DNA from: Mobula hypostoma
Taxonomy: Eukaryota
DNA length: 64,000 nucleotides
Direction: 5' to 3'
NCBI RefSeq assembly: GCF_963921235.1
Contig: NC_086097.1
Span: forward strand, 41,542,001 to 41,606,000
Below the pieces are notes generated by a model that was not told the DNA's origin, ran no database searches, and saw only the letters and a list, made by a program, of their open reading frames with translations. Every line of letters starts with the position of its first letter. Within the stretch, counting starts at the first letter, position 1. Of this stretch, positions 5,231-61,880 are shown piece by piece. Both the position numbers and the translations under genes were made by a program.

Positions 5231-6852
5231 AGAGGTGGAGGAACAGCTAATTTTGTGGAGGCAGGAAGTTTGCAGAAACAATTGGACAGGTTAGAAAAGT
5301 AGTCAAAGAAAGGACAAATGGAATACAGCTTGGTAAGGTATGCACTTTGTTAGGAAGAATAAAGGTGTGGACTATTTCCTAAATGGGATGAAAATGCAGA
5401 ACTTGGAGATATAAAGGAACTTTTCTTGGTTCAGAATTCTCTTTAAGTTTATCTTGCAGGTTGGGTCAGTTGTCAAGAAGATGCATGCAGTGTTAGCATT
5501 CATTTCGGGAGGACTAGAACATAAAAGCAAGAATGCCTAACCGAAGCTTTTTAAGGTGTTTCTCAAAGGTTCAAGTTTCAAACGTGCAAAGATTCATTTA
5601 TTATTGAAGTATACAACTATGAAATTCTTCAAATCTATGGGTAGCCATGAAGTCAAGAAAGGAAGGGAAAGAAAGGCAGCTCGATCATCAACCCCCAAAT
5701 CCCAGAGCCCTGCAAAAAAACCCGGAAAAAACGGAAAAGGCACGTCAACCCCCAAACACCACAGCCCCGCAAAAAAGACAAAAGAAAGCGGAAAAGGTAC
5801 ATCAACCCCCAAATCCCACCTCCTGCGCAAAAGCTGTGCAAAACAGACCAGACACATCGAGCCCCCCCATCCCTCCTCCGCAGAAAGAAAACAAACCAAA
5901 CCAATCAGACACATTGACACCCCCCCCCAATCCCTCCTCCCGCAGAAACAAACGAATCAAACTGATCAGGTACATCAACCTCCAAATCCCTCCTCCCGCA
6001 GAAGAAAATGAACAATATGCATCAGGCATATCGACCCCCAAATCCCTCCTCCTGCACCAAAAAAAAAATGAACAAAACGGTTCAGACACATCGACCCCCA
6101 AATCCCTCCTCCCACAGAAAAAATACGAACAAAATAGATCAGGCACATCAATCACCAAATTCCTCATCCAGCCCAAAAAAAACAAACAAGAAAGTTCAGG
6201 CACATCGACCCCCAAATCCCTCCTCCCTCACAAAAAAAGCAATGATTCAATGATTCAATCCCCCCCCCATCGCTTTATTCGTCGAACAATGGGATCTTTA
6301 ATCAGCAACCACATTCAGACCACATTTGGTATACTGTGAGCAGTTTTGGGCCTTGTATCTAACTAAGCATTTGCTGGCCATAGAGAGGGTCCAGAATATG
6401 TTCAACCCTAACCCTAACGCTTTCATCCTGGGGATGAAAGATTGATCATATGAAAAGAGTATGAGGGTTCTGGGCCTTTACTCGATGGAGTTTAGAAGGA
6501 TGCAGAGAATCTCATTGAAATCTACCATATACTGAAAGGCCTTGATCAGGTGGACATGGAAAGGATGTTCTCAACAGTAGAAGAGTTTGAACTGATAGAA
6601 CCCAATGGCAGAGCCTCAGAATAAAGAGGTATCTCTTTAGAACTGGTTTGAGGAGGAATTTCTTCAGTCGGAGGGTGAAGACTCTGTGGAACTGGTTGCC
6701 ATTGAGAGATGTAGAGGCAAAGTTATTGGATGTTTTTAAAGCAGAAATCAATAGTTTCTTGTTTAGTAAAAGGTTAAGGGTTATGGGGAGAATGTGATTC
6801 AGTTAAAAAATTTCAGGCAAGGTTGAATGGCCTAATTTTGTTCCTATATCTT
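5231..6852 (+). mobile_element. CR1 3' fragment split by an insertion at ~5560-6312
   Basis: CR1 C-terminal coding remnant on both sides (gaagctttttaaggtg ... cagaccacatttggtatactgtgagcagttttgg). CR1 3' end gaatggcctaattttgttcctatatctt at ~6825-6852. Confidence 0.75.
5680..6240. repeat. Minisatellite array, ~10 units of 54-61 bp, inside a non-autonomous retroelement
   Basis: Anchor CATC(G/A)ACCCCCAAATCCCTCCTCC recurs near 5686, 5742, 5800, 5854, 5911, 5972, 6029, 6089, 6146, 6203. Confidence 0.9.
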
Positions 6853-7110
6853 GATCGGCAAGCAATGAGATCTTTAATCGGCAACTACATTCAGACCACA
6901 TTTGGTATACTGTGAGCAGTTTATAGTCAATATGGGCACAGGAAGATGCAAATATAGAAATTAGTGATTTTTATTCTGTGCCTATAAGCAAAGTGGCGAA
7001 TGGGATTCAAGATAATTTGAAAAAAAATATATTCTGGGACACAGCAAAATCTTTTGAAGAACTTCCAAATTTGGTATTTCTGCCATCTAAAACCAAAATG
7101 ATTGGGGAAA

Positions 7111-7269
7111 GCAACACACATCAAAGTTGCTGGTGAACGCAGCAGGCCAGGCAGGGTCTCGGCCTGAAACGTCGACTGCACCTCTTCCTAGAGATGCTGC
7201 CTGGCCTGCTGCATTCACCAGCAACTTTGATGTGTGTTGCTTGAATTTCCAGCATCTGCAGAATTCCTG
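7111..7269 (+). mobile_element. Penelope-like 3'-end mini-palindrome with 13-bp TSD
   Basis: TSD ATGATTGGGGAAA at 7098-7110 and 7270-7282. The left ~44-nt arm is the reverse complement of ~7197-7240. Sequence matches the ends of the 21834-24085 element. Confidence 0.92.
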
Positions 7270-8819
7270 ATGATTGGGGAAATCAGATTTAAGTAAATGA
7301 GTGAGAAATTTACTCTTTAATTTGGGCCTTTTCGAGCATTAGGTTATGTACATGTTGTTGAAAGGAAACTAGAATCTAATGTGTAAAAATCACCTTGCAT
7401 GCCCAGCAAAAATGTGATAAATCTATTTGCTACTCAATATGCAAATTATCATTCATTAGGGAGATAGTCTGACATTTTGAGATAACACTTATTTTCCTTG
7501 ACGAGTTTGTTCTTAACTCTAAGGTGATTCGAGACACTTGTGAAGTACAATAAAAGTGAGTGCCAATGTGATGTGCAGACCTCAGTGATTGGGGTATTAA
7601 ACAATCATAATAGGAGGAAATGAATCCGGAGCTAGAATATATTCAGAGATATACAGGTAATGCTGGGAAGGGAGAACGTGTGGCTGAACCCTTATGGTGC
7701 TCATTAAATATAACTGTTACAGCAAAAGAACACAAGGTAACTAATGTTATTCAAAAGCATGATTTTTTTTTGTTCTGCTTGACATGCAGACCAGGAAGCA
7801 AACAGCACTGGAATTCATTTCAAAGTAAGTGAGCGAAGCTGTGTACAAGCACTCTCTGAGAGAAATGTGATAGCTAGCTTAGAACAAAATTTGGAAAGGT
7901 TAGATTGCAGCTGAGAAGTTTATCGGGATAAAAATGGGATTGATGTAGGATTGGTGTAAGTTGTTGGTGTCGACTCAGTGGGCCAAAGGACTTGTTTCCA
8001 TTTGTGTGGCTTTATGATATAGAGGAATTGATGTCTAATAGTTACATCGCAGCGTGTTTCATAATTTTCAGCAGACATTCATTAATGTGTCTCACCCGAA
8101 AGGAAAATGTTGCCTGAGCAAAGGAGGAAATAGCAAATGGTTAAGTAATAAAATGCATCAGTGATATGGCAGTACTTTTCAGGGCCAGTTACCAGGAGAA
8201 AAAAGTAGAGCCCTAAGGCTTGGTTAAAAAGGTGGCTTCTCAAGGTGAGAGATGGAAAAGTGGATAACCTAAGGAAGGCACTTTCAGAGCAAAAGGCCCA
8301 GGTAGCAGAGAGACTCCTCTGGATACCTGTGCTCTGCTGGTACCTCTTAACTCAGGTTTTCTACTTCTGTTCATGACGGTTATAAATACTGATAAAAATA
8401 TAGAAGAGAATTTTTCAAAGTTATCAGATAAAGAATTCTGCAGGAAGGAAGTCAGTGAAATGTAAGGAGGTGCTTAGGGATTAGCAACTGAACAGATGGT
8501 CTACAATAATGTGAAATGTTTGGTATACTTTGGTATCAAAATAAGCACTTTGAAGCAAGGGCAGATAAGGTGAGATGAGAAAAGAAAATCTCTGCTTACT
8601 TGTTGGCGAAACACCAAAATCATCTCTGGAAAGCAACAGTTGTGAAGATAAACAAAATATTTGAGTATATAAATATATCAGAAATATTGGAGAGTATACA
8701 GTACATCAGGGGTGCTGTCCACTGTCTAGGTGAGTTGAATTGTTCACTTGTCTGATGTTAAATTAACCAAGCATTGTAAAGACCAGAGTGCCTTTGTTTT
8801 GCCTTCATTAATCTTGAAG

Positions 8820-14250: not shown

Positions 14251-15289
14251 TGCTCAGAAAGTGGTGTTAAAGTCAAGGCGGCATCAGTTGTGATCTTACT
14301 GAATGAAGCAGCAAGCTCAAGAAGCCAAATGGCCAACTCCTGCTCCTGTTTCTTATGCTCTTCACCTGTGCATGATGATCACAATACAGGTAGCAAGCCA
14401 TCTTCTTACAATTGCTTGTTGTTGTGATTTCAGTGCCCAACCAATATTAATAGGCTAAGTTAAAAAAGTAGTGCAGATACAAGAAATCAGAATTGAATTC
14501 TGAAAACTTTTGAAATACTCAGCTGGTCAAGCAGCATCTGTGGAGAAGGAAACAGAGTTTGGATTTGTAAACTTTCATCAAAATTGAAATATTGATTCAT
14601 TCTTTTTTCCTAAATGCAATCTGCCCCCCTGAGTACTTCCAGCAATTTCTTCCTTTGCATCTGCATGTGTGGTAAATGGGATTTCTGGAGATGGGTATTG
14701 CTGGGGTAACTGCAGGGATGGCTTTATTTCCGGAGAAAGGTGGTGAAGTAGCTTGATATTTGTCAAGGAGGCCACCCTTCATCTTCCCACATGCAGATGA
14801 AACAGGGTTAATAGCCTTATGGAGAAATACATAGATAGGGAAGGTTAATACAGAAATGGATCAAATGCAAGCAAATAGAACTGACTTGGAAATTTACCTG
14901 GGTCAGCATAGATGAATTGGGCCAAGAAGCCTTTTTCCACACCGAATGACTTTATGGTCTATCACCACGACACAGAAGAATGGAATCTCTGGCCTTTGTG
15001 GTACCATTTGGTAATCCAGATTCACCAAGACCTTTTAATACAATTAGGCAGCTGAATAGCAAGAGAACTCGGGCCCAGGAAGACCCTCACTTTTCTCTGG
15101 TGCCTGGATCAGTCCAAGAGTCTGGCTGTGAAGGTGTATAATGGTAGTGTTGGCCAGAGGAATACGTGAATCTGGTTAACATTGTCTATGTAATTGTCTG
15201 TCTAAAACATTACAGTTTTGGTTCTCCAATTAGCACTCAACAAAACTACGATGTTTTGGAGAACCAGTTAAATGGAGTCAATGGTTGGC

Positions 15290-15415
15290 CTGACGAAGGG
15301 TCTCGGCCTGAAACGTCGATTGCACCTCTTCCTATAGATGCTGCTTGGCCTGCTGCGTTCACCAGCAACTTTGATGTATGTTGCTTGAATTTCCAGCATC
15401 TGCAGAATTCCTGTT
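15290..15415 (+). mobile_element. Penelope-like 3'-end copy starting at the hammerhead core, 6-bp TSD
   Basis: TSD GTTGGC at 15284-15289 and 15416-15421. Begins CTGACGAAGGGTCTCGGCCTGAAACGTC and ends with the full tail ...CAGCATCTGCAGAATTCCTGTT. Confidence 0.9.
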
Positions 15416-17300
15416 GTTGGCTCTATTTTGTAATTTTTGTACAATATTTTCAAACGCTATTTTCTCCCAGATTATTGACAATGGAAACCTATGCTCTTTC
15501 TCCACTGTGTCCTATCTTTTGTGGTCAGGTATAGTATAAGGCCACTCCCCACCTTACAAAATGAAACAGCTGGGAGACATTATCAAGGATTTCAATGCTA
15601 ATATCCTGTAAAATAAAGGAAGTGATATCATTAGTGTATGCAAGAGATGGTCATGTGACTTCCTGCCATTTGCCAATGAATGCCAAGTAAGATCAGCAGG
15701 CTTATCACTGAGCAGCTGGCAGGCAACAGAGACTCATGGGAGCACATCCAATCAGACAGTCTGGCCCAATATGCTTTTAGATGAATAACATCTTGCTGTT
15801 TTTTAGTCTAGTCACTCAAAGTGAATTCAGCCACAATTTAGAATTAAGAGTGCATCTACTTTTTAAATAAATGAGCCTTTTTCCTCTGAAATGCATTGCA
15901 GCAAAGAAATTTAGAAACATTTCATGCAAAGAAATTTCAAATAGCTTTCTTCATGGAGTGATAGACTTAACAGCACCCCCCCCCCCAACCTTGTACACTG
16001 GGCTCAGCATTTTCTTTCTTCTTTCTTTACATCTTCATCATATTTAATGAATCCGATCACCATCAATTATCCAAACAGCAGACCCTCAGGGGGATACCTA
16101 GTTACAAAACAAATGTTCACGTTTTTAGTTACTGCCCCCATTTTGCTATTTAAATAAATATTAGCAATGGATATAAAATTAGCTGCAGATGTAAAATATT
16201 GCTGGATCCTTCATTGATTTACTCCAGCGTGTGGCTTGCATAATTGTGTTTGTTCATGGGAAAACAGTTCAGAAAACGTAAAATTTAATAAAAGCAACTG
16301 CTGGGGAAATGTTATTATAGCATAAATGCAGCAATGAAGTTTATAATAGAAGCATCCATTCACACAGCTTGTGGCAATGTAAAAGTGGAAATTCTCTCTT
16401 GACCATACAATTGTAATGTTACAGACCAGTATTTAAAATGAAGCCATGCCAGCATGAAACACTAATGTAGGCTGCTGACCAACAGCTTAAGGTTGGTATA
16501 ATTCTATGAAAACTGCTGACTTAATTACAAGCCTGTGCACGTGATCCAATAAGTCTTTAGATAGCTTTTGTATCCAAATCTGTGAAAGATCCAGCCTTTT
16601 TGTCTTTGGGGAAACTAAGGGAAAATATTGCTGATACCTTAAATATGAAATAAGAACTGAACCTTTTACTTGCTTACTTCACATTTTTAGGTAAAAAGGT
16701 CACTGCCAAAGCACACATTGGCTTCATTGAGATATCATTGTTAGGGTCACCATTATGATGTGGCTGGCTGATCACATGAAAATGAAAGACTGTTGGGTAT
16801 CTGAGATCACAGAGGGTCAGGAAAAGGTCTCAGAAGGGCCACTTATGGGTACTTACCTGTGAAGTGCTAAAGAAAGTGTGTAGGACATTCACCAGGATGT
16901 TGCTTGGGATGATGCAGTTCAGTTGTGAGGAGAGAGCAGAGAGCCTGGGTCTGTTCTCCCTGGAGTAGGGGGAACATGACTGACATAAATAAAATTATTG
17001 GGGTATAGATAGGGTTACTATAACAAACTTTTCCCTATGTCCCTACTAGACAGATATATGGAGGAATTTAAGGTGGGGGCTTATATAGAAGGCAGAGTTT
17101 GAGGGTTGGCACAACATTGTGGGCCGAAGGGCCTGTACTGTGCTGTACTATTCTATGTCTATGTCTATGTCAGAGTCAGAAAAAAAAAAGATTTAGGATG
17201 AGGGGAAAGAAATTAATTGGGGGTATGAGGGGGGCTTTTGGTATTGGCTTTGCCAACTGCAAAGTTCTAAACTCAAACGATGACCTGAAGCCCTATAGGA

Positions 17301-18445: not shown

Positions 18446-19153
18446 CTAGAGGATATAAATAGCCACGATTACTCTCATGAAGGGGATATTTTACTGTAAC
18501 TACTGACTCTTCAGAAGCTAGTTCACTTCAGTGAGTTTAGCTGCCAATATTCACTGTTTATTCGTGGGTCCACTCTCCCTACCAAGAAGAAGATATTTAC
18601 AGCTAACAGAGTAGCTTAAAACACAGTTCATTCATTATCAGTGATGCACACTTAACTCTAAATGACACATTTTAAACTCACAGAGGATTTATATCTTAAA
18701 CATTTTCAGATTACGAACCATTTCTAAAGCACAAATGATAAAGTACAAAGGGTAAAGGATTTCCAAATCACAGGTACAATTCCTATAAACCAAAGAGTTG
18801 CAGACAAACAAATCTCCATTGCAGAAACCGAAGCCAGAGGAATAGATTCTAGTTCATCCTGTGATTATTCCAGGTTTCTTGATATTCTTTACCTCATTCC
18901 CAATAAACTTGAGCTGCTTGCTTCATTTATATCCTTCTTCTACCACTCAGTGACTTCACATGCATATGGTATTTTCTTTGATACTCTTTTAATACAAATG
19001 ATCTAAATGCATCTTTGAAGACATAGATTTCAATTAATGCTGGAAGCTAATTTCCTGGAGTATATAAAACTTCCAACTATAAACGCATCAATTATTTGAT
19101 ATGCTAAATCATTCACTTCTGTCTGGTCTGCAAGCAAATATCTATCACAATAC

Positions 19154-19191
19154 GAGGAAATCTGCAGATGCTGGAAATTCAAGCCACTTTG
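19154..19191 (-). mobile_element. Solo Penelope-like 3' tail (38 bp) with 14-bp TSD
   Basis: ATCTATCACAATAC at 19140-19153 and 19192-19205 flanks GAGGAAATCTGCAGATGCTGGAAATTCAAGC..., matching the tail at ~21843-21872. Confidence 0.85.
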
Positions 19192-19584
19192 ATCTATCAC
19201 AATACAGAGAATCTCCGGTACCTGGAATACACAACCTGAAAGAGGGTTTGAAGTGGATCAGTTCTTAATAACTGACAGTAATTAAGAAGCTTCTAGATAA
19301 ACACTGAAATTGGTTTAGCATAAAAGAGTATGGAACAAGACCTGCAAATGGGATTAGTTCAGATGCGTTCCCTCTGGTGGTCCCAGTGTTGTGGGCTGAT
19401 TGGACTGTTTACACGCTGTATGACTCTGGTACTTAATAATTGGGGTATACTTGACAATGGCTTGTCTGATGGTACGTGTCTTGAGAGGAAACCACGAGGT
19501 TGTATTTACCAACTTGCTTCAGCTTCTAGAGAAAACCTACTCATTCTGAGCCACGGATGTCTTCCTGTATCCCAGCCTAAATGA

Positions 19585-19954: not shown

Positions 19955-21000
19955 ATGGAAATGGTTTACTATTCCCATGTGTACAGTGAACAGCTCCTCT
20001 TGCATAGTGTTCGTACTGATCACATATCATTACAGAGTGCATTGAGGTAGAACAATGTAAAACAATAACAGTACAGAATGAAGTGTAACAGCTACAGAGA
20101 AAAAAATGCACTGTAGGTAAACAATAAGGTGCAAGATGATAATGATGTAGATTGTGAGGCTGAGAATCCAATGGAGCTTCTCAATATAAGAGCAGGGTGG
20201 AAGCTGGCCTTTAACATGGCAATATGTGCTCTCAAGCCAAAAGAAGAGGGAAGAAAAGAGAATGACCAGGTTGGGTGGTGTCTTCGATTCTGTCAGTTGC
20301 CTTACTGAGGCAGTGAGAAGTAAAGACAGAGTCCACAGAGGGGCGGCTGCATTCCATGATGTGCTGAGCAATGTCTGCTACTCTGCAGTTTCTTATGGTC
20401 CCAGGTAGACAGTTGCCGTACCAACCCACTATGTATCCAAGTAGGCTGCTTTCTATGTGCATCAATAAAAAATTGCTAAGTTTCTTTAGCCTCTTGAGGA
20501 AGCAGAGGTGTTGGTGAGCCTTCTTGGCCTTGACATCCGCATGGTTGGACCAGGGCAGGCTATGGGCGATGTTCACTCCGAGGAACTTGAAACTTCCAAA
20601 CCTCTCAACTTCAAAAAACGTTGATGTCAACAGGACCATGTGCACCACCCCTTTTATGAAATCCATGGCCAACTCTTTTGTTTTGATGGCATTGAGGGAA
20701 ATGTTGTTGTCATGACTAAGCTCTCTAATATTCTCCTATACGCCAACTCATTAATAATTGAGACATGGCCTACTACAGTGGTATCATCTTAAGTCTTGGA
20801 GATGGAGTTGGAGCAAAATTTAGCCATGCAGTCATGAGTGTCCAGGGTTTAGATAGGGGCTGAGAATGCAACCTTGTGAAGTAACAGTGCTTAGAATTAC
20901 TATAACCAAGGTGTTGTTGCCTACCCCTTACTGATTGTGGTCCGTTGGTCAGGAAATCACAGATCCAGCTGCAGAGGCAGGCATTGACTCCTAGGGTGTG
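19955..21000 (-). mobile_element. Rex1/Babar 3' fragment
   Basis: ORFs 20773-21162 (CSWICDFLTNGPQSVR) and 20232-20672 (SFKFLGVNI, KKAHQHLCFLKRLKK, WYGN). Confidence 0.85.
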
Positions 21001-21933
21001 GATTCTGGTTATGAGTTTGCTTATTGCAGGTGGAGCATTAGTCAATAAACTGATATGGATTGTTTTGTTGCTCCAGATTACAGCATGTCTTGCAATGTCT
21101 TCTGCCACCCCCCCCCCAATGTATGTGCTCTGTTTATGTCCCAAACTTCCTGCCAAATGCATCCAAAGTAAAAATATGGATATTTACCCAAGTAAAAGGT
21201 TCTAGCAACCATTCTACCTCTTAGGAACAGATTTTTTGCCAATCATTTATATAAATACTTTAAATCTCGAATTGCCTTTGAAAGATCAGTGTCAGGTCTG
21301 CACCTCCTCAAGTGTTTGCCTGCCTCCTTGTTCCTTTGCTTTTCGGCTGGTGTCACAGCTCATAGTTATCCACGTATAATGAACACAGGGTACTATACAG
21401 CTTGATCACTATTTTTTTCATCTTGTACTTCACCCAAATTTTGCTAACCATTTTAATACTGAAGAATTGTTTCTATAATTAGCATTAGACATTGGGATGT
21501 TTGGCTGCATCTGGTAAAAAAAAGAGTCCAACATGTCAGTGTTTTATAGCAGCAGATTATCCTCAGAAAGCAATTGTGTAATGTTGCATCTATCATGAAG
21601 TAAGTGTACAGGGATATTACATCTCTCAGAGTCGCTGTGTTTCAATTCAATCTGCTCCTTGTAAACTCACCAGTAATTATTCCACCTTTCTCTATTTTAT
21701 GATTGCTTCTGAATGGAAGTTTCAACTTTGAGCATTTCGTTTTAAACAGAAATCCACAATAATATCAATCCCTCACCACTTCAATAGGGAAGGGTTCAGG
21801 TGGAGGGCATTATGCTGCATTTGGTGTTTATAAGCAAACAACAGGAATTCTGCAGATGCTGGAAATTCAAGCAACACACATCAAAGTTGCTGGTGAACGC
21901 AGCAGGCCAAGCAGCATCTATAGGAAGAGGCGC

Positions 21934-21969
21934 AGTCGACGTTTCAGGCCGAGACCCTTCGTCAGGACT
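21934..21969 (-). ncRNA. Minimal type-I hammerhead ribozyme motif
   Basis: Minus strand reads AGTC-CTGACGA-A-GGGTCTCGGCCT-GAAAC-GTC-GACT. Confidence 0.8.
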
Positions 21970-22261
21970 AACTGAAGGAAGAGTGAGTAAGGGATTTGAA
22001 AGCTGGAGGGGGAGGGGGAGATGCAAAATGATAGGAGAAGACAGGAGGGGGAGGGATAGAGCCGAGAGCTGGACAGGTGATAGGCAAAAGGAGATACGAG
22101 AGGATCATGGGACAGGAGGTCCGGGAAGAAAGACGGGGGGGGGTGACCCAGAGGATGGGCAAGAGGTATATTCAGAGGGACAGAGGGAGAAAAAGGAGAG
22201 TGAGAGAAAGAATGTGTGCATAAAAATGAGTAACAGATGGGGTACGAGGGGGAGGTGGGGC

Positions 22262-22588
22262 CTAGCGGAAGTTAGAGAAGTCAATGTTCATGCCATCAGG
22301 TTGGAGACTACCCAGACGGAATATAAGGTGTTGTTCCTCCAACCTGAGTGTGGCTTCATCTTTACAGTAGAGGAGGCCGTGGATAGACATGTCAGAATGG
22401 GAATGGGATGTGGAATTAAAATGTGTGGCCACTGGGAGATCCTGCTTTCTCTGGCGGACAGAGCGTAGATGTTCAGCAAAGTGGTCTCCCAGTCTGCGTC
22501 GGGTCTCACCAATATATAAAAGGCCACATCGGGAGCACCGGACGCAGTATATCACCACAGTCGACTCACAGGTGAAGTGATGCCTCAC
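22262..22588 (-). pseudogene. GIY-YIG endonuclease domain of a Penelope-like element (5'-truncated; RT absent)
   Basis: FTCES..VIYCVRCSRCGLLYIGETRRRL..H..HF..E..LGSLQPDGMN: GIY-YIG with the CCHH residues of PLEs. The upstream Cys linker (KCYTCP) suggests the Neptune group. Confidence 0.9.
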
Positions 22589-23365
22589 CTGGAAGGACTG
22601 TTTGGGGCCCTGAATGGTGGTAAGGGAGGAAGTGTAAGGGCATGTGTAGCACTTGTTCCGCTTACACGGATAAGTGCCAGGAGGGAGATCAGTGGGGAGG
22701 GATGGGGGGGACGAATGGACAAGGGAGTTGTGTAGGGAGCGATCCCTGCAGAATGCAGAGAGAGGGGGGAGGGAAAGATGTGCTTAGTGGTGGGATCCCG
22801 TTGGAGGTGGCGGAAGTTACGGAGAATAATATGTTGGACCCGGAGGCTGGTGGGGTGGTAGGTGAGGACCAGGGGAACCCTTTTCCTAGTGGGGTGGCGG
22901 GAGGATGGAGTGAGAGCAGATGTACGTGAAATGGGGGAGATGAGGGAGGGAGATGTCCTCCTTTTTTAAAGAAAGGGGCTTCCCTTCCTCCACTGTCAAC
23001 TCTGCTCTCAAATGCATCTCCCCCATTTCACACACATCTGCTCTCACTCCATCCTCCCGCCACCCCACTAGGAATAGGGTTCCCCTGGTTCTCACCTACC
23101 ACCCCACCAGCCTCCAGGTCCAACATATTATTCTCCGTAACTTCCGCCACCTCCAACAGGATCCCACCACTAAGCACATCTTTCCCTCCCCCCCTCTGCT
23201 TTCTGCAGGGATTGCTCCCTATGCAACTTCCTTGTCCATTCGTCCCCCCCATCCCTCCCCACTGATCTCCCTCCTGGTGCTTTTCCTTGTAAGCAGAACA
23301 AGTGCTACACATGCCCTTACACTTCCTCCCTTACCACCATTCAGGGCCCCAGACAGTCCTTCCAG

Positions 23366-23692
23366 GTGAGGCGACACTTCACCTGTGAGTCGGCTGGGGT
23401 GATGTACTGCGTCTGGTGCTCTCGATGTGGCCTTCTATATATTGGCGAGACCCGACGCAGACTGGGAGACCACTTTGCTGAACACCTACGCTCTGTCCGC
23501 CAGAGAAAGCAGGATCTCCCAGTGGCCACACATTTTAATTCCACATCCCATTCCCATTCTGACATGTCTATCCACGGCCTCCTCTACTGTAAAGATGAAG
23601 CCACACTCAGGTTGGAGGAACAACACCTTATATTCCGTCTGGGTAGCCTCCAACCTGATGGCATGAACATTGACTTCTCTAACTTCCGCTAG
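23366..23692 (+). pseudogene. GIY-YIG endonuclease domain of a Penelope-like element (second arm)
   Basis: Near-identical to 22262-22588. Upstream frame 22953-23369 has the PLE thumb/linker (FKERGFP, RVPLVLTYHP, IILRNFRHLQ). Confidence 0.9.
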
Positions 23693-23987
23693 GCCCCACC
23701 TCCCCCTCGTACCCCATCTGTTACTCATTTTTATGCACACATTCTTTCTCTCACTCTCCTTTTTCTCCCTCTGTCCCTCTGAATATACCTCTTGCCCATC
23801 CTCTGGGTCACCCCCCCCCCCTGTCTTTCTTCCCGGACCTCCTGTCCCATGATCCTCTCGTATCCCCTTTTGCCTATCACTTATCCAGCTCTTGGCTCTA
23901 TCCCTCCCCCTCCTGTCTTCTCCTATCATTTTGCATCTCCCCCTCCCCCTCCTGCTTTCAAATCCCTTACTCACTCTTCCTTCAGTT

Positions 23988-24023
23988 AGTCCTGATGAAG
24001 GGTCTCGGCCTGAAACGTCGACT
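23988..24023 (+). ncRNA. Minimal type-I hammerhead ribozyme motif (predicted cleavage after C24019)
   Basis: AGTC-CTGATGA-A-GGGTCTCGGCCT-GAAAC-GTC^GACT: stem I AGUC/GACU, core CUGANGA and GAAA, stem II hairpin, loopless palindromic stem III (ACGU). Activity untested. Confidence 0.8.
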
Positions 24024-25055
24024 GCGCCTCTTCCTATAGATGCTGCTTGGCCTGCTGCGTTCACCAGCAACTTTGATGTGTGTTGTTTGGTGTTTATAAA
24101 GATGGTCTCATTGCCAAAAGCAAGTGCTGGCTTTATTCCCAGTTATAAAAGAAAATACCTGCCTTGCATGAATATTTAATTAACTGTGCTCTATTTTGAA
24201 TAGTGCCCATTTAATTCACGATATCCACGATTACTGAAAGCAAGATTTACATACATAAGGACACATACACATAGCTTTGAACTCCCACTATCTTCAGTTT
24301 AACGCAGAGTAAAATCAAAACAATCCAGCACTTACAGTTATGGAAAAGAAGCTTCAAACTTAACTTGTTCTTGAATTTTCTAATAATATAGCATCAAAAG
24401 ATAAAAAGGCAGCAATTACATTCATTGTGTTGAAATCACTTCGTATTTATTCACCCACCTTCAGTTTACAGATCCCAGAAGGCAAGTTAATTTGCCTAGT
24501 CTGTATCAAAGCTGATGCTTGTCTATAACACTGAGTATCTATTTTGATAAGAAATCTCCTGATACTTCTAAACTCCAAAGAATACAGATCTAAATTATTT
24601 AGTCATCCATAATAGAATAGCAAAATGAATCTCTTCTGGACTTCCTCCAGTGCTTGTATATTTTTCTTAAATAGGGAACCAAAAATATGCAGAATTCTGT
24701 AGGTGTAGCCCAAGGAAAACCCTGTACAATCGCAACAATAATTCTTCATTTATAAACTCCATAAACTAGCAGTGAAAACCAGTTTACTCTTTTCCTTCTT
24801 AATTGTTTGTTGTATCTGCATGCTAACCTTTTGTGCTCCATACAGAGGAACACCTAGATCCACCTGTAATCCACTTATTTTGATACCACTTATCAAAGTA
24901 TAAGACCTTACACTTTCTCGCATTAAGTTCTACTTGTCATTTTATGCCCTCTCCCTCAACTTAGCTATATCATATTACAGAGTGCGAAGATCTCATCATA
25001 GCATGCCATCCCACCCATTTTTGTACCATCATAAAACTTGGATACCTTACACTCT

Positions 25056-25185
25056 CAAACAAGAGAAAATTTGCAGATGCTGGAAATCCAAGCAACACAC
25101 ACAAAATGTTGGAGGAACTCAGCAGGCCAGCAGCATCTATGGAAAAGAATAAACAGTCGATGTTTCCAGTCAAGACCCTTCATCA
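25056..25185 (-). mobile_element. Penelope-like 3'-end copy (sister subfamily) starting at the hammerhead core, 16-bp TSD
   Basis: TSD GGATACCTTACACTCT at 25040-25055 and 25186-25201. Minus strand begins (CC)TGATGAAGGGTCTTGACTGGAAACATCGACT. Confidence 0.88.
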
Positions 25186-27270
25186 GGATACCTTACACTC
25201 TGTTCCACTCCTCAAGATCATTAATATAGGTAGTCACAGCTGATGGCCAAGAACTGATCCTTGGGGCTCTCCATCAGTTATATCTTTACAGTCTGAAATC
25301 AAGCCCATTAATTCTTACTCTCTATGTGATCATCAGTCTTTAATCCATGATGATAGACTTCACTCAATGGAGTTTCCTTATTTCCACTCAAACTAATTCT
25401 ATGTTGTGGGCGTCTGTCCCATAACATGTCTCACCACTACATTGAAGCCTTCCTGGTTTGGCTGCTGTTTACCTATTCACTCAGAACATTAAAAAGTCTA
25501 GAAAACTGGTCAGCATGCAAGTATAGCTCTATAATTAGATGTATTATAGATGAGTTGATTGTACAAATAGAAACAAATGTATGTGATTTATTGAATCAGA
25601 TACATTTGTTTTTATTGGTGTTGTCAATCCAGCTATTTTACCACAAATGCTGTGTGAATTCAGATAGGGAGCTTTAAAGTGAGACATTTTATAATAGCTA
25701 TTTAGCATGGTTCCAATTTCTACTGCAAGCTTATGTTTAGATTTTGTGTCCCTTTCATTCACCCCTTTGCCCTATCATCTCTCTCTTTACCTGAAATAGC
25801 CCCACCAATTGATTTAAAGCCCTGTCTATAATCCTGGTTATGTGATCCACCAAGGATCTAGTGAGGAAATCTCATGAATTGAAAAAGATCTCTCCCAGGC
25901 TTGTCTCTGAACCACATATTTATCTCACATTCCCAGTCTTACTTTCCCTCTAGTAATTTATCTGCGTCTTAGGTAATAATATGGAAATTATAATCTTTGT
26001 GGTTCTGCAATTTTGACTGACCTCCTTATAATCCCTATAAAATCTCCTCCCTAGTTCAACATACATGTGTCATTAGCAACCAATGGTAACTCACTCTGAC
26101 CTTTCCCACTCCAAGTTCCTCTCCAGGTCAGAGGAGATCTTGTTAACCCTGGTAATGGGCATGCAACCTGGCCTTCAAGACTCTGCCTGACGCTTGGATT
26201 ACAGCTCATCAACTCCAAACTGAGATTCTTCAAACGGCTGACACTTAATACAGATATGGTGACTATGAATCAATGGGGTTCACCAGTTCCCATACATTGT
26301 AATTACCACGTATTGTCTACCTAGCCATCTCTGTTCCAGTTAGTGAATTAGTCTGGGATTTAATTATTTTGAATGTGCACTCCTTAGCTGTCCTGGTGTC
26401 TTCTGATTTAAAACTCTTGGCCAATCAATAGAGGGTGTGATCTTTGCCTTCTTACGCTTTTCTACATTTTAGTTTGATAGGGTTTGTTTCGTACAACTGT
26501 GAAAAGATGGAAATTTATTTCAGTCTTGAAATAACTCTTCACAAAATACTCACTTATTCCTTTGCAAAAATTCATCTGTTTTAAACTGCTCTTTCTCTAC
26601 TTAACATTCATGAAGCTAGCTGCTAATATTTATATTAGCTATTGCATCCTGTTTCATCTAGTGCAGTTGCAAAGCACAAAGTTTCCTGTATTTTGAGCTC
26701 TCTGCATTGAGGAGCTTCTTAACTCTTGAAGGACATGTAATTGTGCCTCTGGGGAAAAGGATGCCCATCCAAAGCTTTTGATGAACTAATTTCAAGAGAT
26801 AAATGAGCATAAATTATAGTTATGGGGTAATATACAGTAAGCAGACAAGACAGATATTTGCAGTATCAGCAGGGCTGCACTTTATAATATGTTGGAGATC
26901 AACTGATGACATTTCTGTTCTTCCTTCATTTGGAAGTAAGGACACATGAAGTAGAGCTGGAGGAATTCTCTCAGGTCTCTGAGCTGGCTGTGTTGTGATC
27001 ATTCACCTCATTGCCCATCAAGAATTCATGTTAAATGCCCCTGCTTTTGAATACAATATGTTTATCTTTGACACAGATTACGGTCGTGTGAAATTGTGGA
27101 ATTAGGGGAAGATGAGGCTTCCCTCGCAGTTCACTGAGGAGCAGTTCTGCTCCTCCTGACCAGCAAAGAAACAAATAAAGGGGTACATTTCTTCACGTTT
27201 AAATTTCTACTTTCATTTTAACCTAAAAATGTATGAACTGGCACAAAAACCTTGGGTTAAGATTACAACT

Positions 27271-27523
27271 AACACAAAATGCTGGAGGAACTCATCAGGT
27301 GTGGCAGCATCCATGGAGAGGAATAAAGAGGCAACAGATTGGGCTGAGACACTTCATCGGGACTGATTGTCTTTCTTTGCTGGCCAGTCCCAACGAAAGC
27401 TCTTGGCTCAAAACATCAACTCTTTATTCCTCTCCATCGTGCTGCCTGACCTGTTGTGTTCCTCCTGCAGTTGGTGTGAGTAATTCTGGATTTCCAACAT
27501 CAGCAGTATCTCTTGTTTTTACA
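27271..27523 (+). mobile_element. Older Penelope-like mini-palindrome with 9-bp TSD
   Basis: TSD ATTACAACT at 27262-27270 and 27524-27532. Diverged arms ~27271-27365 and ~27385-27478, then tail ggatttccaacatcagcag. Confidence 0.8.
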
Positions 27524-29661: not shown

Positions 29662-29820
29662 GTTACTACATGTATATAGAAACTTCTCGTCCTCGAAAGG
29701 AAGGCGAAAAGGCTCGGCTACTGAGTCCTATTTTCAGTACACTGCCTAAAAATCCATATGGTTCGACGAACAGCGCTTACTGTGTGAGCTTCTACTATAA
29801 CATGTATGGAAAGCACATAG
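29662..29820 (+). CDS. MDGA2: Internal coding exon (159 bp, phase 1-1) of an MDGA-family protein, MAM domain
   Basis: Polypyrimidine tract and AG (ctcctttttctcttgcag) end at 29661; donor GTTAGT at 29821. Translation (G)[52 protein letters not shown](G) has MAM motifs YMYIETS, ARLLSP, CxSFYYxMYG and the MDGA2-type PKNPYG insert. MDGA2 vs MDGA1 is from recalled sequences and less certain than the family call. Confidence 0.9.
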
Positions 29821-38312: not shown

Positions 38313-41300
38313 GCCATTTTCAGCTGTTCCTCACAGTCACAAGTGGAATGTTCTCGGATGATTATACATTGTTCAATTTCATTGATAACTCCTCAGCAAA
38401 AAGAGCAGTCCACACCTAATCGTGTACACATACATACACACGATTATGAGAGTTGGACTTTGATTGGGTAGGTTTCAGGGGCTGATAGATCTTTCCTCAC
38501 TTACAAATTCTAAGGAGGCTGATGATATGAGTTAAAGCCCAGATTTCCAGCTAATTTTACCATTTACTTCACTGGATTGAATATGATTGCCAAGCTTGAG
38601 TCTCGTTTTTTTGGACTTAGATTTCCATATCGTTATCTTGTTGAAATGGGTTGTTAACAAAAGTCAATCTTACTTGACAGAATTACTGGCATAGCCCTCC
38701 CTTAACTAACGATAACATTTTACTTGTCCACCCACTGTCCAATATCACATGTGTTTGCCTGCAGTAATTTGGTTACTGCTTGTATTTTCCTAGACATATT
38801 AATTAGTCTGTGGAAGCTGGTGGCAGGAACAATATTGCTTTTCAGAATAAAATCCATCAAATTATAATAAACATGAGAAACAGCACAGAGCCAAGTGCAC
38901 CTCTCTGAGGGGCTCCTGTGAACATGTTGTCATAAGGAGATAAATACTTTATGTTTGTGTCCTCTAAGGAAGTCATTTAAGTAGCAGAACAGCTGACTAA
39001 GTCTAGTCGCAGAACGAAGAATGATTCATGGTTACCATTAGAACCCCTCGATTGCTTTCCATTCTCTGAGATTTTATAAAGGAACTCAGCATTTTGAGAG
39101 CTGTACTAATTATGTGCTGTCCTTCATATAAACTGTGTGTTAATGTTCAATGTAAAGATTATAGATCCAAGAGTCGTGGTTGTGTTAATGATGAAGTACC
39201 AACCTTTGTTGTCTTTACATCACAAGAAGTGGAAGTCCCATCCTGACCATTGCAAATATGTAGATCAATGCTGAAATCCCAGAGCTGCCACTTGTGATTG
39301 CCTGCTGCAGAGAGCAGTGTCGTGGCCTTCTGAGGCACTGTAGGGAGTAAATGATCTTTGATCTTTGGAGAATCAGAGAATTACCTGCTACTCTCACTTG
39401 CTAAGACTCTGAAAAGTGACAGTTTGTTCCATTTGATGTAATTGAAACTTCAGTGCTGTATTAAGCCATGATTACTGCACAGTGATCTCTCCACCCTATA
39501 CAAAGCTAATTTTGTACAAATTAATTTTCATTCCCTAGGAATGGAGAAGTTCAATGGATCTTTAGGATGCTTAATTATGGCATTTCAACTTCAATCTCAG
39601 TCTCGTATGGAGTTTCCAATCTTTTAACTACTGCCTGTGTAAATTTTGTTTCTTCATTTCTTGGTTTTGCTGTCTCATGAAAGTTCTCTGGTGTGATTGG
39701 CTATTCTGCTTACACGATGAGATTAGTTTAATTAGTGTTGGACCCACTAACCCTGATGTTGCCAGTAATTGGAATCAGGGAAGGGTCCCAGAGATCATGA
39801 GATCCTGAAGGAGCATTCTTCCTTTCAATATTTCTATTAGTTTCTACATAGAAGAATACAGAGTACAAGAAAGTGTATATAAGTATTCAAAAAGAAGATT
39901 TTTAAAAACTACCAGTTACAGTATATCTACTCATAATAACAATCTCATTACCCAATATTCATGTAAGTTAGTCAATAGTTATATTGAAATATACTAATTT
40001 ATTACAAAAATGACTCTAACCCCTACCAAGACCAAAGCTGTTTATTAAGGGGAAAAAAGGTAAAATATCTTCTCATATAATAAAAAATTAATGATAGCCA
40101 ACATCTGAATTTAAACAACGAATTGAGGGTTTTGAAAGTTTTGAAAATAATTCAGAAAGGATCCCCACAATGTTTGAAAGTCTTGACGAGGTTCAGAAAT
40201 AGAACAACAAATCTTCTCTAAATCTAAGCATGACGTAATGTCACATAACTATTGAGCATGAGTAGGAGGAAAAACATCTTTCCATTTAAACAAAAGCGCC
40301 CTCCTAGCTATAAAAGAGCTAAAGGCCAAAATATGTAAATCAGATGTCTTCAGCTTGATTTCTTGTCCTGCAACAATACCGAATAGGGCCATCAGAGGAT
40401 TAGGCTTAAAATTGACTTTGAAAAGTAAAGAAAAAGTTTGAAAAACTTCCTTCCAATATTTTTCAAGACACGGACAGGTCCAAAACATATGAATTAATGA
40501 ATCTTCTCCATTATTACCTCTGTCACAGTAGGGAGATATATCTGAATAAAAACGAGATAGCTTATCTTTAGTCATATGGACTCTATGTACCACCTTAAAT
40601 TGTATGAGGGAATGGCGAGCACATAGCGATGAAGTATTAACCAGTTTAAAAATTTCATTCCAAGTTTTCTCAGATATTGATGTCTGTAAATCTTGTTCCC
40701 AGTGATTCTTAATTTTATCTAAAGGAACATTCCTCGTCTCCAGTAATATACCATAAGTATTAGATATTGAACCATTATGAAAAGGTGTCAAATTAAAAAT
40801 TACGCCTAGTAAGTTCTTATTTGAGCTTATAGGAAATATGCATAATTGAGATCTTAGAAAGTCTCTGATTTGTAGATATCTAAAAAAGTGAGTTTTGGGT
40901 AAGCCATATTTAGCTGACAATTGCAAAAATGAGAAAAAATTTCCTCCAACAAACAGATCCCAAAAACATATAATACCCAACCTGTCCCATTCTTTAAAAA
41001 CTAAATCAGTTATGGAGGGTTTTAAAAAAATTAGAATAAATGGGACTAGAAAGGGAAAATCTCAACAAACTAAAATATTTTCTAAATTGTATCCAGATCC
41101 TCAGAGTATGTTTAACTATTAAATTATCAGTTAGTTTACTTACAAATAAAGGAAGTGAGGATCCGAGAAGAGAAATAATAGAAAATTTATTAACAGAGTT
41201 AGCTTCTAAAGAAACCCATACCGGACAGTCTACAGGTTTAATATATTATAACCAAAACGTAAGATATTGTATATTAACTACCCAGTAATAAAACCTAAAA

Positions 41301-42921
41301 TTAGGTAAGGCTAAACCTCCAGACTTTTTAGGTTTTTGAAGATGAACTTTATTTAAACGAGGACGTTTATTTATCCATATATAGGAGGATAAAATAGATT
41401 CAAGGGAGTCAAAAAAGGATTTAGGAACAAAAGCAGGTTAAGCCTGAAAAAGATATATAAAATTAGGTAGAATATTCATATTAGTAGAATTAATTCATCC
41501 AATCAATGATATTGAAAGAGGTGACCAATTTAATGATATCTTTTTTACATGGTTCAATAAAGTAAGAAAGTTTTCTTTAAACAGGTGTTTGTAATTCTTA
41601 GTGACTGTTACACCCAAATAATTAAATTGATTCCTTACAATTTTAAAAGGGAGATTAGTATTAATTGATACCAAATTATTTAAAGGAAATCATTCACTCT
41701 TATGTAGGTTCAATTTATATCCTGAAAACCGGCTAAAACGGGAGAGTAAAGAAAGTATGCAAGGTAACAAGGTCTCAACATTAGAGATAAAAAGCAATAT
41801 ATCATCAGCATAAAGCGAGATTTTGTGGGTGATACCTCTCCTTAAAATACTACAAATACCATTAGATTCTCGAAAAGCAATGGCAATGGGTTCTAAAGCT
41901 AGATCAAAATGCAAATGACTTAATGGGCAGCCTTGTCTAGTTCCACGGTGAAGTTTAAATGGTTTGGAATTTTAAAAATTAGTGAGAACCTGAGCAGAAG
42001 GAGATAAATAAAGTAATTTAATCTATTGAATAAAATCTGGTCCAAAATTAAATTTTTCTAAGGTTGTAAATAAATAATTCCATTCAACCTAATCGAAGGC
42101 TCGAAGGCCTTCTCAGCAGCTAAGGATATCGCACATTCTGATATCTCCTAAGAAGGAGAGTAAATAACATTTAATACACGGCTTATATTAAAATGGGAAT
42201 GTTGGTTTTTAATAAATCCAATCTGATCATGAGAAATAATAGAAGGTAAAATATTTTCAATCCTATGAGCCAGAACTTTAGGAAGAATTTTAGTATCAAC
42301 ATTGAGTAATGAAATTGGCCTATATGAAGAGCATTCAGCTGGGTCCTTGTTCTTTTTTAGGATAAGCGAAATAAAAGCTTCATAAAAAGATTGAGGCAAA
42401 CTACCCAATTTTAAAGAATCCAAAAAGACTTAAGTATAACCGCGGTATAACTAATGAAGAAAAAGCCTTATAAAATTCTCCAGAAAATCCAACTGGACCC
42501 GGAGCCTTTCCCAAGTGTAATGAACGTATAGCCTTGGTGATTTCCTCTTAAGAAATGAGTTGATCCATCTGTTTGCAATTGTCTGCAGAAAATGTAGGGA
42601 AAATTGATCCAGAAAATTATTCATTACAGTATTATCTTTAGGGGAATCAGAACTATAAACTTTAGAATAGAATTCTCTAAAAGTATCATTTATTTTAGAG
42701 TAATCAATTGTCCTACCACCATTAGTTTTGCAAATTTCTTTAAGTTGTCATTTAACTACAGAAGTTTTCAATTGGTTGGCCAATACTTTGCCTGATTTAT
42801 CTCGGTGAATGTAAAATTATCATCAAGAAGTTGAGTTTCAATTGGGTATGTTAACAGAAGATCATATTTAGTTTTTAACTTCAACACGTCTTTTATATAA
42901 AACAGGATCTGGAGCTATAGC

Positions 42922-43309
42922 AACACACATCAAAGTTGCTGGTGAACGCAGCAGGCCAGGCAGCATCTCTAGGAAGAGGTACAGTCGACGTTTCGGGCCG
43001 AGACCCTTCATCAGGACTAACTGAAGAAAGAGCTAGTTAGGGATTTGAAAGTGGGAGGGGGAGGGGGAGATCCAAAATGATAGGAGAAGACAGGAAGGGG
43101 AGAGATGGAGCCAAGAGCTGGACAGGTGATTGGCAAAAGGGATATGAGAGGATCATGGGACAGGAGGCCCAGAGAGAAGGAAAAGGGGGAGGGGAAAAAA
43201 CCCAGAGGATGGGCAAGGGGTATAGTCAGAGGGACAGAGGGAGAAAAAGGAGAGAGAGAGAAAGAATGTGTGTATATAAATAAATAACGGATGGGGTACG
43301 AGGGGGAGG
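42922..43309 (-). mobile_element. Penelope-like 3'UTR unit inserted into L1 ORF2, 12-bp TSD
   Basis: TSD TGGAGCTATAGC at 42910-42921 and 43310-43321; homologous to ~21872-22258. Confidence 0.92.
42983..43018 (-). ncRNA. Minimal type-I hammerhead ribozyme motif
   Basis: Minus strand AGTC-CTGATGA-A-GGGTCTCGGCCC-GAAAC-GTC-GACT; stem II closes with GGG/CCC. Confidence 0.8.
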
Positions 43310-49800: not shown

Positions 49801-49818
49801 CTGACTTGGTCCAACCAT
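46816..49818 (+). mobile_element. Rex1/Babar LINE, 5' end present, 3' end missing
   Basis: APE start in ORF 47107-47784 (ANVQAIENK, FCFTETWL), single in-frame stop 47782-47784, then 688-aa ORF 47797-49863 (GDFN, GKSDH, DYRPVALTS, IDYSSAFNT, GAPQGCVLSPLLY, KFADD). Homology ends abruptly after LTWSNH. Confidence 0.95.
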
Positions 49819-54860: not shown

Positions 54861-54991
54861 GTACTTTGAACCTTTTTCTACGATTCAAAGGATCGGCCAT
54901 AACGGAGAATCTCATTTGGAGTATGTCTGGCAACCAAGGTGATCAGTGGCTGCATGCAAGTATCAATATCAATCCAAGTGGAACTTTTCAG
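54861..54991 (+). CDS. MDGA2: Next coding exon (131 bp, phase 1-0) of the same MDGA-family MAM domain
   Basis: Acceptor ttttgctttctag ends at 54860; donor GTGAGA at 54992. Translation (G)TLNLFLRFKGSAITENLIWSMSGNQGDQWLHASININPSGTFQ has the MAM W-S-x-S-G-N-x-G-x-x-W motif. It splices in frame to the 29662-29820 exon across a 25,040-bp intron. Confidence 0.9.
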
Positions 54992-61740: not shown

Positions 61741-61880
61741 ACATGTGATTCTGCATCGGCTGGAAATCTTGAACAACGCACACAGAATGCTGCAGGGACT
61801 CAGCAGGACATGCAGCAGCTATGGCCCTCCATCAGAAGCTGCCTGACCTGCTGAGTTCCTCCAGATCTTGTGCATGTTGC
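61741..61880 (-). mobile_element. Old Penelope-like mini-palindrome
   Basis: Tail ctgcatcggctggaaatc, then arms ~61771-61818 and ~61838-61881 (actcagcagg / cctgctgagt). Degenerate TSD TGCTCATCC(G/T)GG(A)AAGT at 61725-61740 and 61878-61894. Confidence 0.7.

What the first reader, a model, noticed from the sequence alone, without database searches (positions are those of the whole stretch)
21820..24099. 2.25-kb palindromic PLE insertion: 1071-bp arms, 72-nt spacer, 38-nt tail, one TSD pair
Seen: a single 14-bp TSD encloses two head-to-head, 5'-truncated copies, each with a complete GIY-YIG reading frame and a hammerhead, so both arms arose in one insertion event. Inference: if this lies in an MDGA intron, the pre-mRNA can form a ~1-kb dsRNA stem (ADAR or Dicer substrate). 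That stem would sequester the only intact + strand hammerhead I found. The DNA could also extrude a cruciform.
Basis: partly seen in the sequence, partly recalled or inferred. Interest (0 to 1): 0.7.

Follow-up and report, generated by a model that had tools for sequence, protein, structure and literature searches.

The report
Two-armed Penelope insertion in MDGA2 intron
A young, dead copy of a Penelope-type jumping gene landed in an intron of a ray's MDGA2 gene as two back-to-back halves, which is a published way these elements insert, though here the two halves seem to have been copied from different source RNAs.

Summary
The structure is real: 14-bp TSD (21820-33/24086-99), 38-nt tail, 1071-bp arms 96% alike, 72-nt spacer. 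It is a head-to-head pair of 5'-truncated Neptune-type Penelope-like elements in an MDGA2 intron (sense +). Inverted truncated copy, one-sided tail and TSD are the published PLE pattern. The window holds a second clear case (7098-7282), and the scan noted several on other DNA of this genome, including a two-template case.

Corrections: the spacer is simply more element ORF. Both arms are frameshifted, lack the RT core and carry His at a conserved endonuclease Arg. The hammerheads are the minimal type reported inactive as monomers. A 72-nt spacer disfavours a cruciform.

New here: 27 of 34 arm differences sit in the inner 478 nt. Six non-CpG ones are family-wide variants where the right arm has the outgroup letter, while the outer halves share young variants. 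The site looks empty in a relative 2.9% diverged (indirect). So the inner halves have different ancestry. Twin priming on two templates (about 0.6) fits better than the published self-priming idea; later gene conversion is the main rival. The 1-kb dsRNA is plausible but untested, and no host function is indicated.

The parts
21820..21833 (+). Left copy of the 14-bp target-site duplication
   Evidence: Exact match to 24086-24099, occurs only twice in the window
21834..21871 (-). 38-nt tail: element sequence beyond the end of the right arm; distal RT start site (B-type end)
   Evidence: Copies at 7153-7269 and 15289-15421 end in the same stretch; junction crossed by X1 contig 21000-21856
21872..22942 (-). 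Left arm: 5'-truncated PLE copy (end of thumb/linker, GIY-YIG endonuclease, 3' UTR/pLTR)
21933..21970 (-). Minimal type-I hammerhead motif of the left arm (CUGACGA core, 5-bp helix I, ACGU palindrome in place of helix III)
   Evidence: no Rfam hammerhead hit
22262..22783 (-). Open endonuclease stretch of the left arm with CX5CxxC linker motif; frameshift near 22765-22780; His at the conserved Arg
   Evidence: PF01541 E 0.0024, below cut-off; 90% to P0001
22465..22942 (-). Inner part of the left arm (partner about 23015-23489) holding 27 of the 34 arm differences, including six non-CpG family-wide variants
22935..22955 (.). Inversion junction: the 8-nt word GGGAGATG ends the left arm (22935-22942) and recurs at the start of the right copy (22948-22955), five letters apart
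   Evidence: 8 nt or more in 0.07% of 191,963 random breakpoint pairs (window size chosen after seeing it)
22943..23014 (+). 72-nt spacer = extra 5' reach of the right copy (element coding sequence)
   Evidence: P0001 residues 122-204 align from 22947; tables 5 and 7
23015..24085 (+). Right arm: 5'-truncated PLE copy ending at the proximal RT start site (A-type end, no tail); outer half young-lineage, inner half other-lineage variants
23174..23692 (+). Open endonuclease stretch of the right arm; frameshift near 23189-23195; His at the conserved Arg
   Evidence: (PF01541 E 0.011, below cut-off)
23987..24024 (+). Minimal type-I hammerhead motif of the right arm (CUGAUGA core); predicted cut after 24019
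24086..24099 (+). Right copy of the 14-bp target-site duplication
29662..29820 (+). Host MDGA2 exon (MAM domain positions 44-85), nearest exon, 5.6 kb downstream of the insertion
   Evidence: (94% to shark MDGA2)
54861..54991 (+). Next host MDGA2 exon (MAM positions 86-130)

Best explanation
A single, recent retrotransposition event of a Neptune-type PLE into an MDGA2 intron, made by twin priming on two different template units. SHOWN: one TSD, two outward-facing truncated copies, one ending at the tail site and one 38 nt short of it; inner halves differing at family-wide variant sites. INFERRED: the endonuclease nicked both strands 14 nt apart. Each 3' end primed reverse transcription, one at each of the two internal start sites, giving the one-sided tail. 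The two cDNAs were copied from non-identical templates: two RNAs held by a dimer, two units of one partial-tandem transcript, or one RT switching RNA after about 600 nt. They stopped 72 nt apart and were joined untidily at an 8-nt complementary word, then filled in. The copy is dead and most likely neutral. It would form a 1-kb stem in MDGA2 pre-mRNA as a by-product.
For: TSD and geometry. Six family ends in the window fall in two classes, three each, and both two-armed copies have one of each, matching the two RT start sites and both-strand cleavage and extension shown for PAc, with a predicted dimer (PMC11167929). Differences cluster inward: 27 in 478 nt against 7 in 593 nt; 0 of 2000 uniform and 0 of 2000 CpG-weighted shuffles reach this; non-CpG only 14 vs 5, p=0.017. 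Of 11 arm-difference sites among the rows shown, 8 have both letters at 14% or more of X1 depth. Six of them are non-CpG, all in 22469-22754, and in all six the right arm carries the letter at 97% or more in organism C (rough chance 0.0004-0.003). In the outer half both arms share letters enriched in organism A (22003: 45% vs 1% in B; 22023: 23% vs 2%; 21931: 34% vs 2%; 22228: 50% vs 12%). The site appears empty in organism B (record 17), whose flank differs by 24 of 830, less than the inner arms differ (p=0.017) and more than the outer arms (p=0.04).
Against: No linked haplotypes: letter shares are summed depths of short contigs, counting was truncated, and only 40 of 131 rows were shown, so 23 of the 34 arm differences are unclassified. 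The inner right arm is not a clean block: both arms share two rare CpG-type letters there (22482, 16%; 22750, 10%) and 22622 (60%), which hints at common ancestry or patchy conversion. The outer halves are of one young lineage, so two fully independent RNAs need a recombinant source lineage. The empty site is indirect, because the 985 unaligned letters were not shown. CpG-rich element DNA decays faster than flank. The central junction was not among the contigs shown.
Confidence: 0.6

Rival explanations
1. One template at insertion (identical arms), followed by ectopic gene conversion of the inner right arm from another family copy, or, the other way round, arm-to-arm conversion that later homogenised the outer 600 nt.
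For: Very many donors (contig depth on the arm about five orders above the flank, not a copy number). Patchy inner pattern with shared rare letters at 22482 and 22750 between differing sites. Inverted repeats are break-prone in single-stranded DNA (PMC10164571 abstract).
Against: Short time available if the site is empty in B. No letter private to both arms (under 1% in the family) among the 12 outer rows shown, which arm-to-arm conversion could have produced. The tail still needs two priming events.
Confidence: 0.2
2. Self-priming or fold-back (the reading proposed in PMC3846280): one cDNA folds back at the 8-nt inverted word and copies itself; the differences are plain ageing.
For: The 8-nt word at both breakpoints is rare by chance (0.07%) and is what a snap-back would use. 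Several differences are opposite CpG decays (22731/22732, 22675/22676).
Against: Predicts the greatest identity next to the turn, whereas the inner halves differ most, and at family-wide non-CpG variants. Predicts a single copy of the word, whereas two remain. Cannot supply the 38-nt tail, which the right copy lacks.
Confidence: 0.05
3. Assembly or polishing artefact: a fold-back read, or letters of other copies mixed into the right arm.
For: No contig shown spans the element or the central junction; no long reads were available; PLE inverted structures are known to trouble assemblies (PMC8557442).
Against: Arms differ at 34 sites and two gaps, so they are not a read-back. Exact TSD with unique flanks. 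The left junction is matched by X1. The right arm carries a 14% minority letter at 22754, not the majority a polisher would pick. The same architecture occurs at 7098-7282.
Confidence: 0.07
4. Two separate insertions, the second landing at the 5' end of the first.
For: Inner arms have different ancestry.
Against: One TSD encloses both and there is none at the centre. The outer halves are the same young lineage. One A-type and one B-type end, as in the 7.1-kb copy.
Confidence: 0.03
5. The stem has a regulatory role for MDGA2 (editing hub, siRNA source, switch that hides a ribozyme). Not exclusive of the above.
For: Sense-strand intron, 1049 predicted pairs with uninterrupted runs up to 172.
Against: Probably absent in a close relative; 5.6 kb from the nearest exon; minimal hammerheads were inactive as monomers; decay is neutral-looking (27 transitions of 34).
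Confidence: 0.05

Closest known systems
Inverted-repeat insertions of endonuclease-bearing PLEs: Pen2a_Av/Pen2_Av of Adineta vaga (PMC3846280; passages and Discussion read) and the general scheme in Craig et al. 2021 Fig. 2 legend (PMC8557442; passages read)
   Same: Inverted 5'-truncated copy adjacent at the 5' end, head-to-head, whole unit inside one TSD (9-10 bp there), 30-40-bp tail at one end only.
   Different: Both copies are truncated and nearly equal (1.07 kb), so the unit is almost a full palindrome. The authors read such junctions as self-priming; here the inner arms have different ancestry, which self-priming alone does not give.
PAc (Poseidon of Anolis carolinensis) in vitro mechanism (PMC11167929; main text and part of methods read, supplements not read)
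   Same: Two adjacent internal RT start sites that define the tail; both target strands cut and extended; AT-rich target; hammerhead in the pLTR.
   Different: PAc is Penelope/Poseidon clade; this family has the CX2-5CxxC linker motif of Neptune/Nematis. The main text does not address inverted copies or whether the two primed ends use one or two RNAs.
Minimal type-I hammerheads of metazoan PLEs (PMC4209133; parts 1-2 of 4 read)
   Same: Conserved core, short helix I, palindrome in place of helix III; pairs on opposite strands 100-700 bp apart were reported.
   Different: The pair here is about 2 kb apart; activity untested.
L1 twin priming (recalled, not from a call)
   Same: Two primed cDNAs from staggered nicks give a 5' inversion inside one TSD, joined at short complementarity.
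   Different: L1 pieces are non-overlapping parts of one RNA primed at poly(A) and internally; here both pieces cover the same 1.07 kb, which needs two template units or re-use of one.
Intronic inverted Alu pairs as ADAR substrates and fragile sites (editing role recalled; spacer effect from PMC7999016 passages)
   Same: Long imperfect stem in pre-mRNA from two inverted repeat copies.
   Different: Made in one step; longer arms; 72-nt spacer exceeds the 52-bp spacer that already removed frequent fork stalling in eukaryotic cells.

Membership tests
EN+ Penelope-like element | C-terminal GIY-YIG endonuclease with CCHH motif (two Cys between GIY and YIG) | tested here: met
   CxxC between the V(I/M)Y and YIG words in both arms; PF01541 weak hits below cut-off; 90% to P0001 and 65% to P0006, which carries RVT_1 and GIY-YIG hits
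EN+ Penelope-like element | PLE-type RT upstream in the same ORF | tested here: inconclusive
   Truncated away in both arms; present in relatives P0003/P0006 (RVT_1 below cut-off). No RT tree was built.
EN+ Penelope-like element | Hammerhead motif in the terminal (pLTR) region | tested here: met
   Core, helix I, ACGT palindrome in both arms; Rfam has no hit; activity not testable
EN+ Penelope-like element | Optional 30-40-bp tail at one end | tested here: met
   38 nt at the left end only; same two end classes in other copies
EN+ Penelope-like element | Inverted 5'-truncated copy at the 5' end, unit flanked by a TSD | tested here: met
Neptune/Nematis clade | CX2-5CxxC motif in the RT-EN linker | tested here: met
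   CX5CxxC in both arms; definition from PMC8557442
Neptune clade proper | RT phylogeny with named Neptune elements | not testable with these tools
   No named reference elements on hand; Neptune over Nematis rests on the vertebrate host (PMC4209133 lists Neptune in fishes)
Autonomous PLE | Intact RT-EN ORF | tested here: not met
   5' truncation, linker frameshifts, His at conserved Arg in both arms
Self-primed (fold-back) palindrome | Arms identical at birth, most alike near the turn | tested here: not met
   27 of 34 differences are in the inner 478 nt, six at non-CpG family-wide variants
Cruciform-forming palindrome | Short or no spacer and near-perfect centre | tested here: not met
   72-nt spacer; mismatches at 22924-22925; PMC7999016. 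Extrusion itself was not assayed.
ADAR/Dicer substrate | Transcribed long duplex with A-to-I edits or siRNAs | not testable with these tools
   Only contigs were available, no raw RNA reads
MDGA2 intron | Lies upstream of an internal MDGA2 exon on the gene's strand with no exon between | tested here: met
   Exon 29662-29820 begins mid-MAM domain; tblastn with two shark MDGA2 proteins finds only two exons in 64 kb. The upstream exon lies outside the window and was not seen.

The most novel reading that the evidence does not exclude
Head-to-head PLE insertions are made by a dimeric RT-endonuclease in which each protomer carries its own RNA and primes from its own nick at one of the two start sites, and the two cDNAs synapse through short inverted words native to the element. 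This copy, young and with arms of different ancestry, is a natural record of that. The huge ray family would allow the question of one versus two templates, and of self-priming versus twin priming, to be settled by counting.
Probability: 0.4. Interest if true: 0.5.

Novelty: new member of a known kind. Interest (0 to 1): 0.3.

Why it matters
As an object it is one of many dead PLE copies with a published architecture. Its value is mechanistic: how PLEs make inverted copies is stated as unresolved (PMC8557442), one paper favours self-priming (PMC3846280), and the in vitro work stops at two start sites (PMC11167929). Arms with different subfamily variants inside one TSD favour two templates. My four searches found no paper stating this for PLEs, but the library lacks most subscription papers. 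Evgen'ev and Arkhipova 2005 and Arkhipova 2006, cited in the papers I read, were not read. Such insertions also create kilobase dsRNA stems in host introns in one step; whether that matters for the host is untested.

Tried and rejected
No whole genome is held, so no genome-wide count or linked haplotypes. Rfam at E<=1 gave only miRNA-model hits caused by the hairpins and no hammerhead. Monomer folds of four hammerhead regions gave no hammerhead fold and z near 0; this is uninformative for the minimal type. The metagenome scan returned 1 locus at 30% identity of 200 candidates. The PDB search with the endonuclease gave no GIY-YIG structure, so the catalytic role of the replaced Arg rests on conservation (9 of 11) and recall. 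Motif greps for Ig/MAM exons missed the exons; a splice-site scan found them. No RNA holder was listed, and the guessed RNA run X13 shows no cover over 21204-21815; neither says anything about expression. Organism C's contig stops at 21682 and does not reach the site. My first thought that the two frameshifts were one inherited lesion was dropped: the two arms differ in sequence at that run. A>G counts are family variation, not editing. The look-up of earlier findings by sequence found nothing. The ADAR literature search was seen as a listing only and not used.
Full report
1. Observation. A 14-bp direct repeat sits at 21820-21833 and 24086-24099, exact, not extendable, and found only twice in the window. 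Between the two lie a 38-nt stretch (21834-21871), a left arm (21872-22942), 72 nt (22943-23014) and a right arm (23015-24085). The arms align with 34 substitutions in 1068 columns and two 3-nt gaps. A contig of run X1 matches 21000-21856 without a difference and so crosses the left junction (X1 may be the source sample). No contig shown spans the whole element or the central junction.

2. What it is. Each arm encodes the C-terminal part of a Penelope-like protein, 90% identical to a Mobula hypostoma gene model and 65% to a whale-shark one that also carries an RT hit. The host is therefore most likely a ray (inference). The linker has CX5CxxC and the endonuclease has two cysteines between the GIY- and YIG-like words, the marks of the Neptune/Nematis clades (PMC8557442, passages). 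The copies face outward: 5' ends in the centre. The spacer is the right copy reaching 72 nt further 5' (tables 5, 7). Neither arm is a complete gene. Both start after the RT core, both are frameshifted in the linker at a slippage-prone run, with different sequence in each arm, and both have His at a position that is Arg in 9 of 11 relatives with the motif (catalytic role recalled). Each arm ends in a minimal type-I hammerhead: core, 5-bp helix I and an ACGU palindrome in place of helix III.

3. Surroundings. Two MAM-domain exons on + (29662-29820, about 54861-54991) are MDGA2 (94% to shark MDGA2). tblastn with two full-length shark proteins finds no other exon in 64 kb, so the insertion lies in a long intron 5.6 kb before the nearest exon; the upstream exon was not seen. 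The same family has three more young copies here. 7098-7282 has a 13-bp TSD, a short inverted arm, a 30-nt spacer and a tailed copy. 15289-15421 has a tailed end. 42921-43315 has an untailed end and a TSD of about 12 bp. The six ends fall into two classes of three, and each two-armed copy has one of each. Two older fold-back relics lie at 27268-27481 and about 61740-61870.

4. The arms are not simple twins. 27 of the 34 differences lie in the inner 478 nt and 7 in the outer 593 nt; none of 2000 uniform and none of 2000 CpG-weighted shuffles reach this clustering, and non-CpG sites alone give 14 vs 5 (p=0.017). Laying contigs of organisms A (X1), B (X5), C (X9) and a guessed RNA run (X13) on 21000-23014 showed 40 of 131 variant rows, 28 within the element. 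Eleven of these are arm-difference sites. At three the left letter is nearly private (22307, 22557, 22882). At eight, both letters make up 14% or more of X1 depth. Six of the eight are non-CpG (22469, 22519, 22561, 22580, 22667, 22754), all in the inner part, and at all six the right arm has the letter at 97% or more in organism C (rough chance 0.0004-0.003). In the outer half both arms share letters common in A and rare in B (22003, 22023, 21931, 22228). So the left arm looks like a plain member of a young lineage, and the right arm is young outside and of other ancestry inside. Against a clean story: both arms share two rare CpG-type letters in the inner part (22482, 22750) and 22622. 23 differences were not among the rows shown. 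The shares are summed contig depths with truncated counting and carry no linkage.

5. Age. In organism B a single 1886-nt contig aligns over 21000-21829 (24 other letters, 3 gaps) and then runs 985 letters unlike the stretch. If the site is empty, those letters would end at 25080, about 25 nt inside the next repeat copy (25056-25188), just as X1's contig ends 23 nt inside the insertion. That fits an empty site, but the letters were not shown. The flank differs by 2.9% between A and B, the outer arms by 1.2% and the inner arms by 5.6% (Fisher p=0.04 and 0.017). The outer figure suits an insertion after the A/B split; the inner figure is too large to have built up since, though CpG decay inflates it somewhat.

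6. Mechanism. PAc protein cuts and extends both target strands and starts reverse transcription at two adjacent internal sites whose interval is the tail; a dimer is predicted (PMC11167929, main text). Applied here (inference): nicks 14 nt apart each primed a cDNA, one at the tail site and one 38 nt inside, on non-identical templates. The cDNAs stopped 72 nt apart and were joined. The 8-nt word GGGAGATG ends the left arm and recurs five letters later at the start of the right copy. A match this long arises in 0.07% of 191,963 random breakpoint pairs (window chosen after the fact). Both copies of the word survive, so it may have brought the ends together without being the final joint. I give this two-template reading 0.6, later gene conversion 0.2, artefact 0.07, self-priming with ageing 0.05 and two insertions 0.03. 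Self-priming, the reading offered for rotifer copies (PMC3846280 Discussion), predicts the best identity near the turn and no tail, the opposite of what is seen.

7. The + strand folds into 1049 arm-to-arm pairs and buries the hammerhead; 16 of the 34 mismatches become G-U pairs. Such a stem is plausible in pre-mRNA, but I could test neither transcription nor editing. The hammerhead is the only intact one on + in the window, yet a single minimal motif showed no self-cleavage and even dimers were weak (PMC4209133, parts 1-2), so there is probably little to sequester. Longer spacers and mismatches lower the risk of secondary structure; a 52-bp spacer already removed frequent fork stalling at inverted Alus in eukaryotic cells (PMC7999016, passages). 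Hairpins in long single-stranded DNA remain possible (PMC10164571, abstract).

8. Comparison and novelty. An inverted 5'-truncated copy, a 30-40-bp one-sided tail and one TSD are described as common for PLEs (PMC3846280, PMC8557442), and opposite-strand hammerhead pairs were noted in 2014. This is a new member of a known kind. I found no paper stating that the two arms derive from different templates (10.64898/2026.07.22.740005 passages were not relevant). Older reviews and all supplements were not read and may bear on it. The scan's own notes report the same architecture several times in this genome, one with two templates and one with only weak hints. These are unchecked, and my reading was written down before I saw them.

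9. Verdict. Real, young, dead, ordinary in architecture; modestly useful as evidence on an open mechanistic point. Interest 0.3.

Noticed in passing
window 7098-7282: Second two-armed copy of the same family: 13-bp TSD, ~46-nt inverted arm, 30-nt spacer, tailed copy; mirror orientation; 2-nt overlap at the turn; hammerhead core cut off.
   Followed up: partly
window 19140-19205: A tail-only scrap of the family (about 38 nt) inside an exact 14-bp direct repeat: perhaps the shortest possible insertion.
   Followed up: no
window 27268-27481 and 61718-61891: Two older, decayed fold-back relics of related PLE ends (72-85% complementary arms); the second lies within an imperfect 21-nt direct repeat.
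   Followed up: no
window 21834, 24085, 7111, 15415-15421, 42921: At several 3' ends the first TSD letters partly match the element's continuation (2-5 letters), hinting at short primer-template pairing at priming; not tested against chance.
   Followed up: no
window 22482 / 23472: Both arms carry the same CpG-type change giving His at a conserved endonuclease Arg; this letter is 16% of X1 depth and 1.5% in the guessed RNA run. Shared source or two independent decays is unresolved.
   Followed up: partly
P0003, P0004, P0011: RefSeq models of rays named as host genes (divergent protein kinase domain 1C, mucin-2, chitinase domain protein 1 isoforms) contain this PLE's protein; either exonisation or misannotation. 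Both arms also hold a strong candidate splice donor (22589 on -, 23365 on +), the + one in MDGA2 sense.
   Followed up: no
window 47785-49863 (+): 692-aa open frame with a full RVT_1 domain: a fairly intact non-LTR retrotransposon fragment.
   Followed up: partly
window 40249-45583 (-): L1-type element remains (Transposase_22 and zf-RVT weak hits), interrupted at 42921-43315 by a PLE copy of this family.
   Followed up: partly
window 5688-6237: Degenerate array of about 57-nt units with open frames on both strands and no Pfam hit.
   Followed up: no
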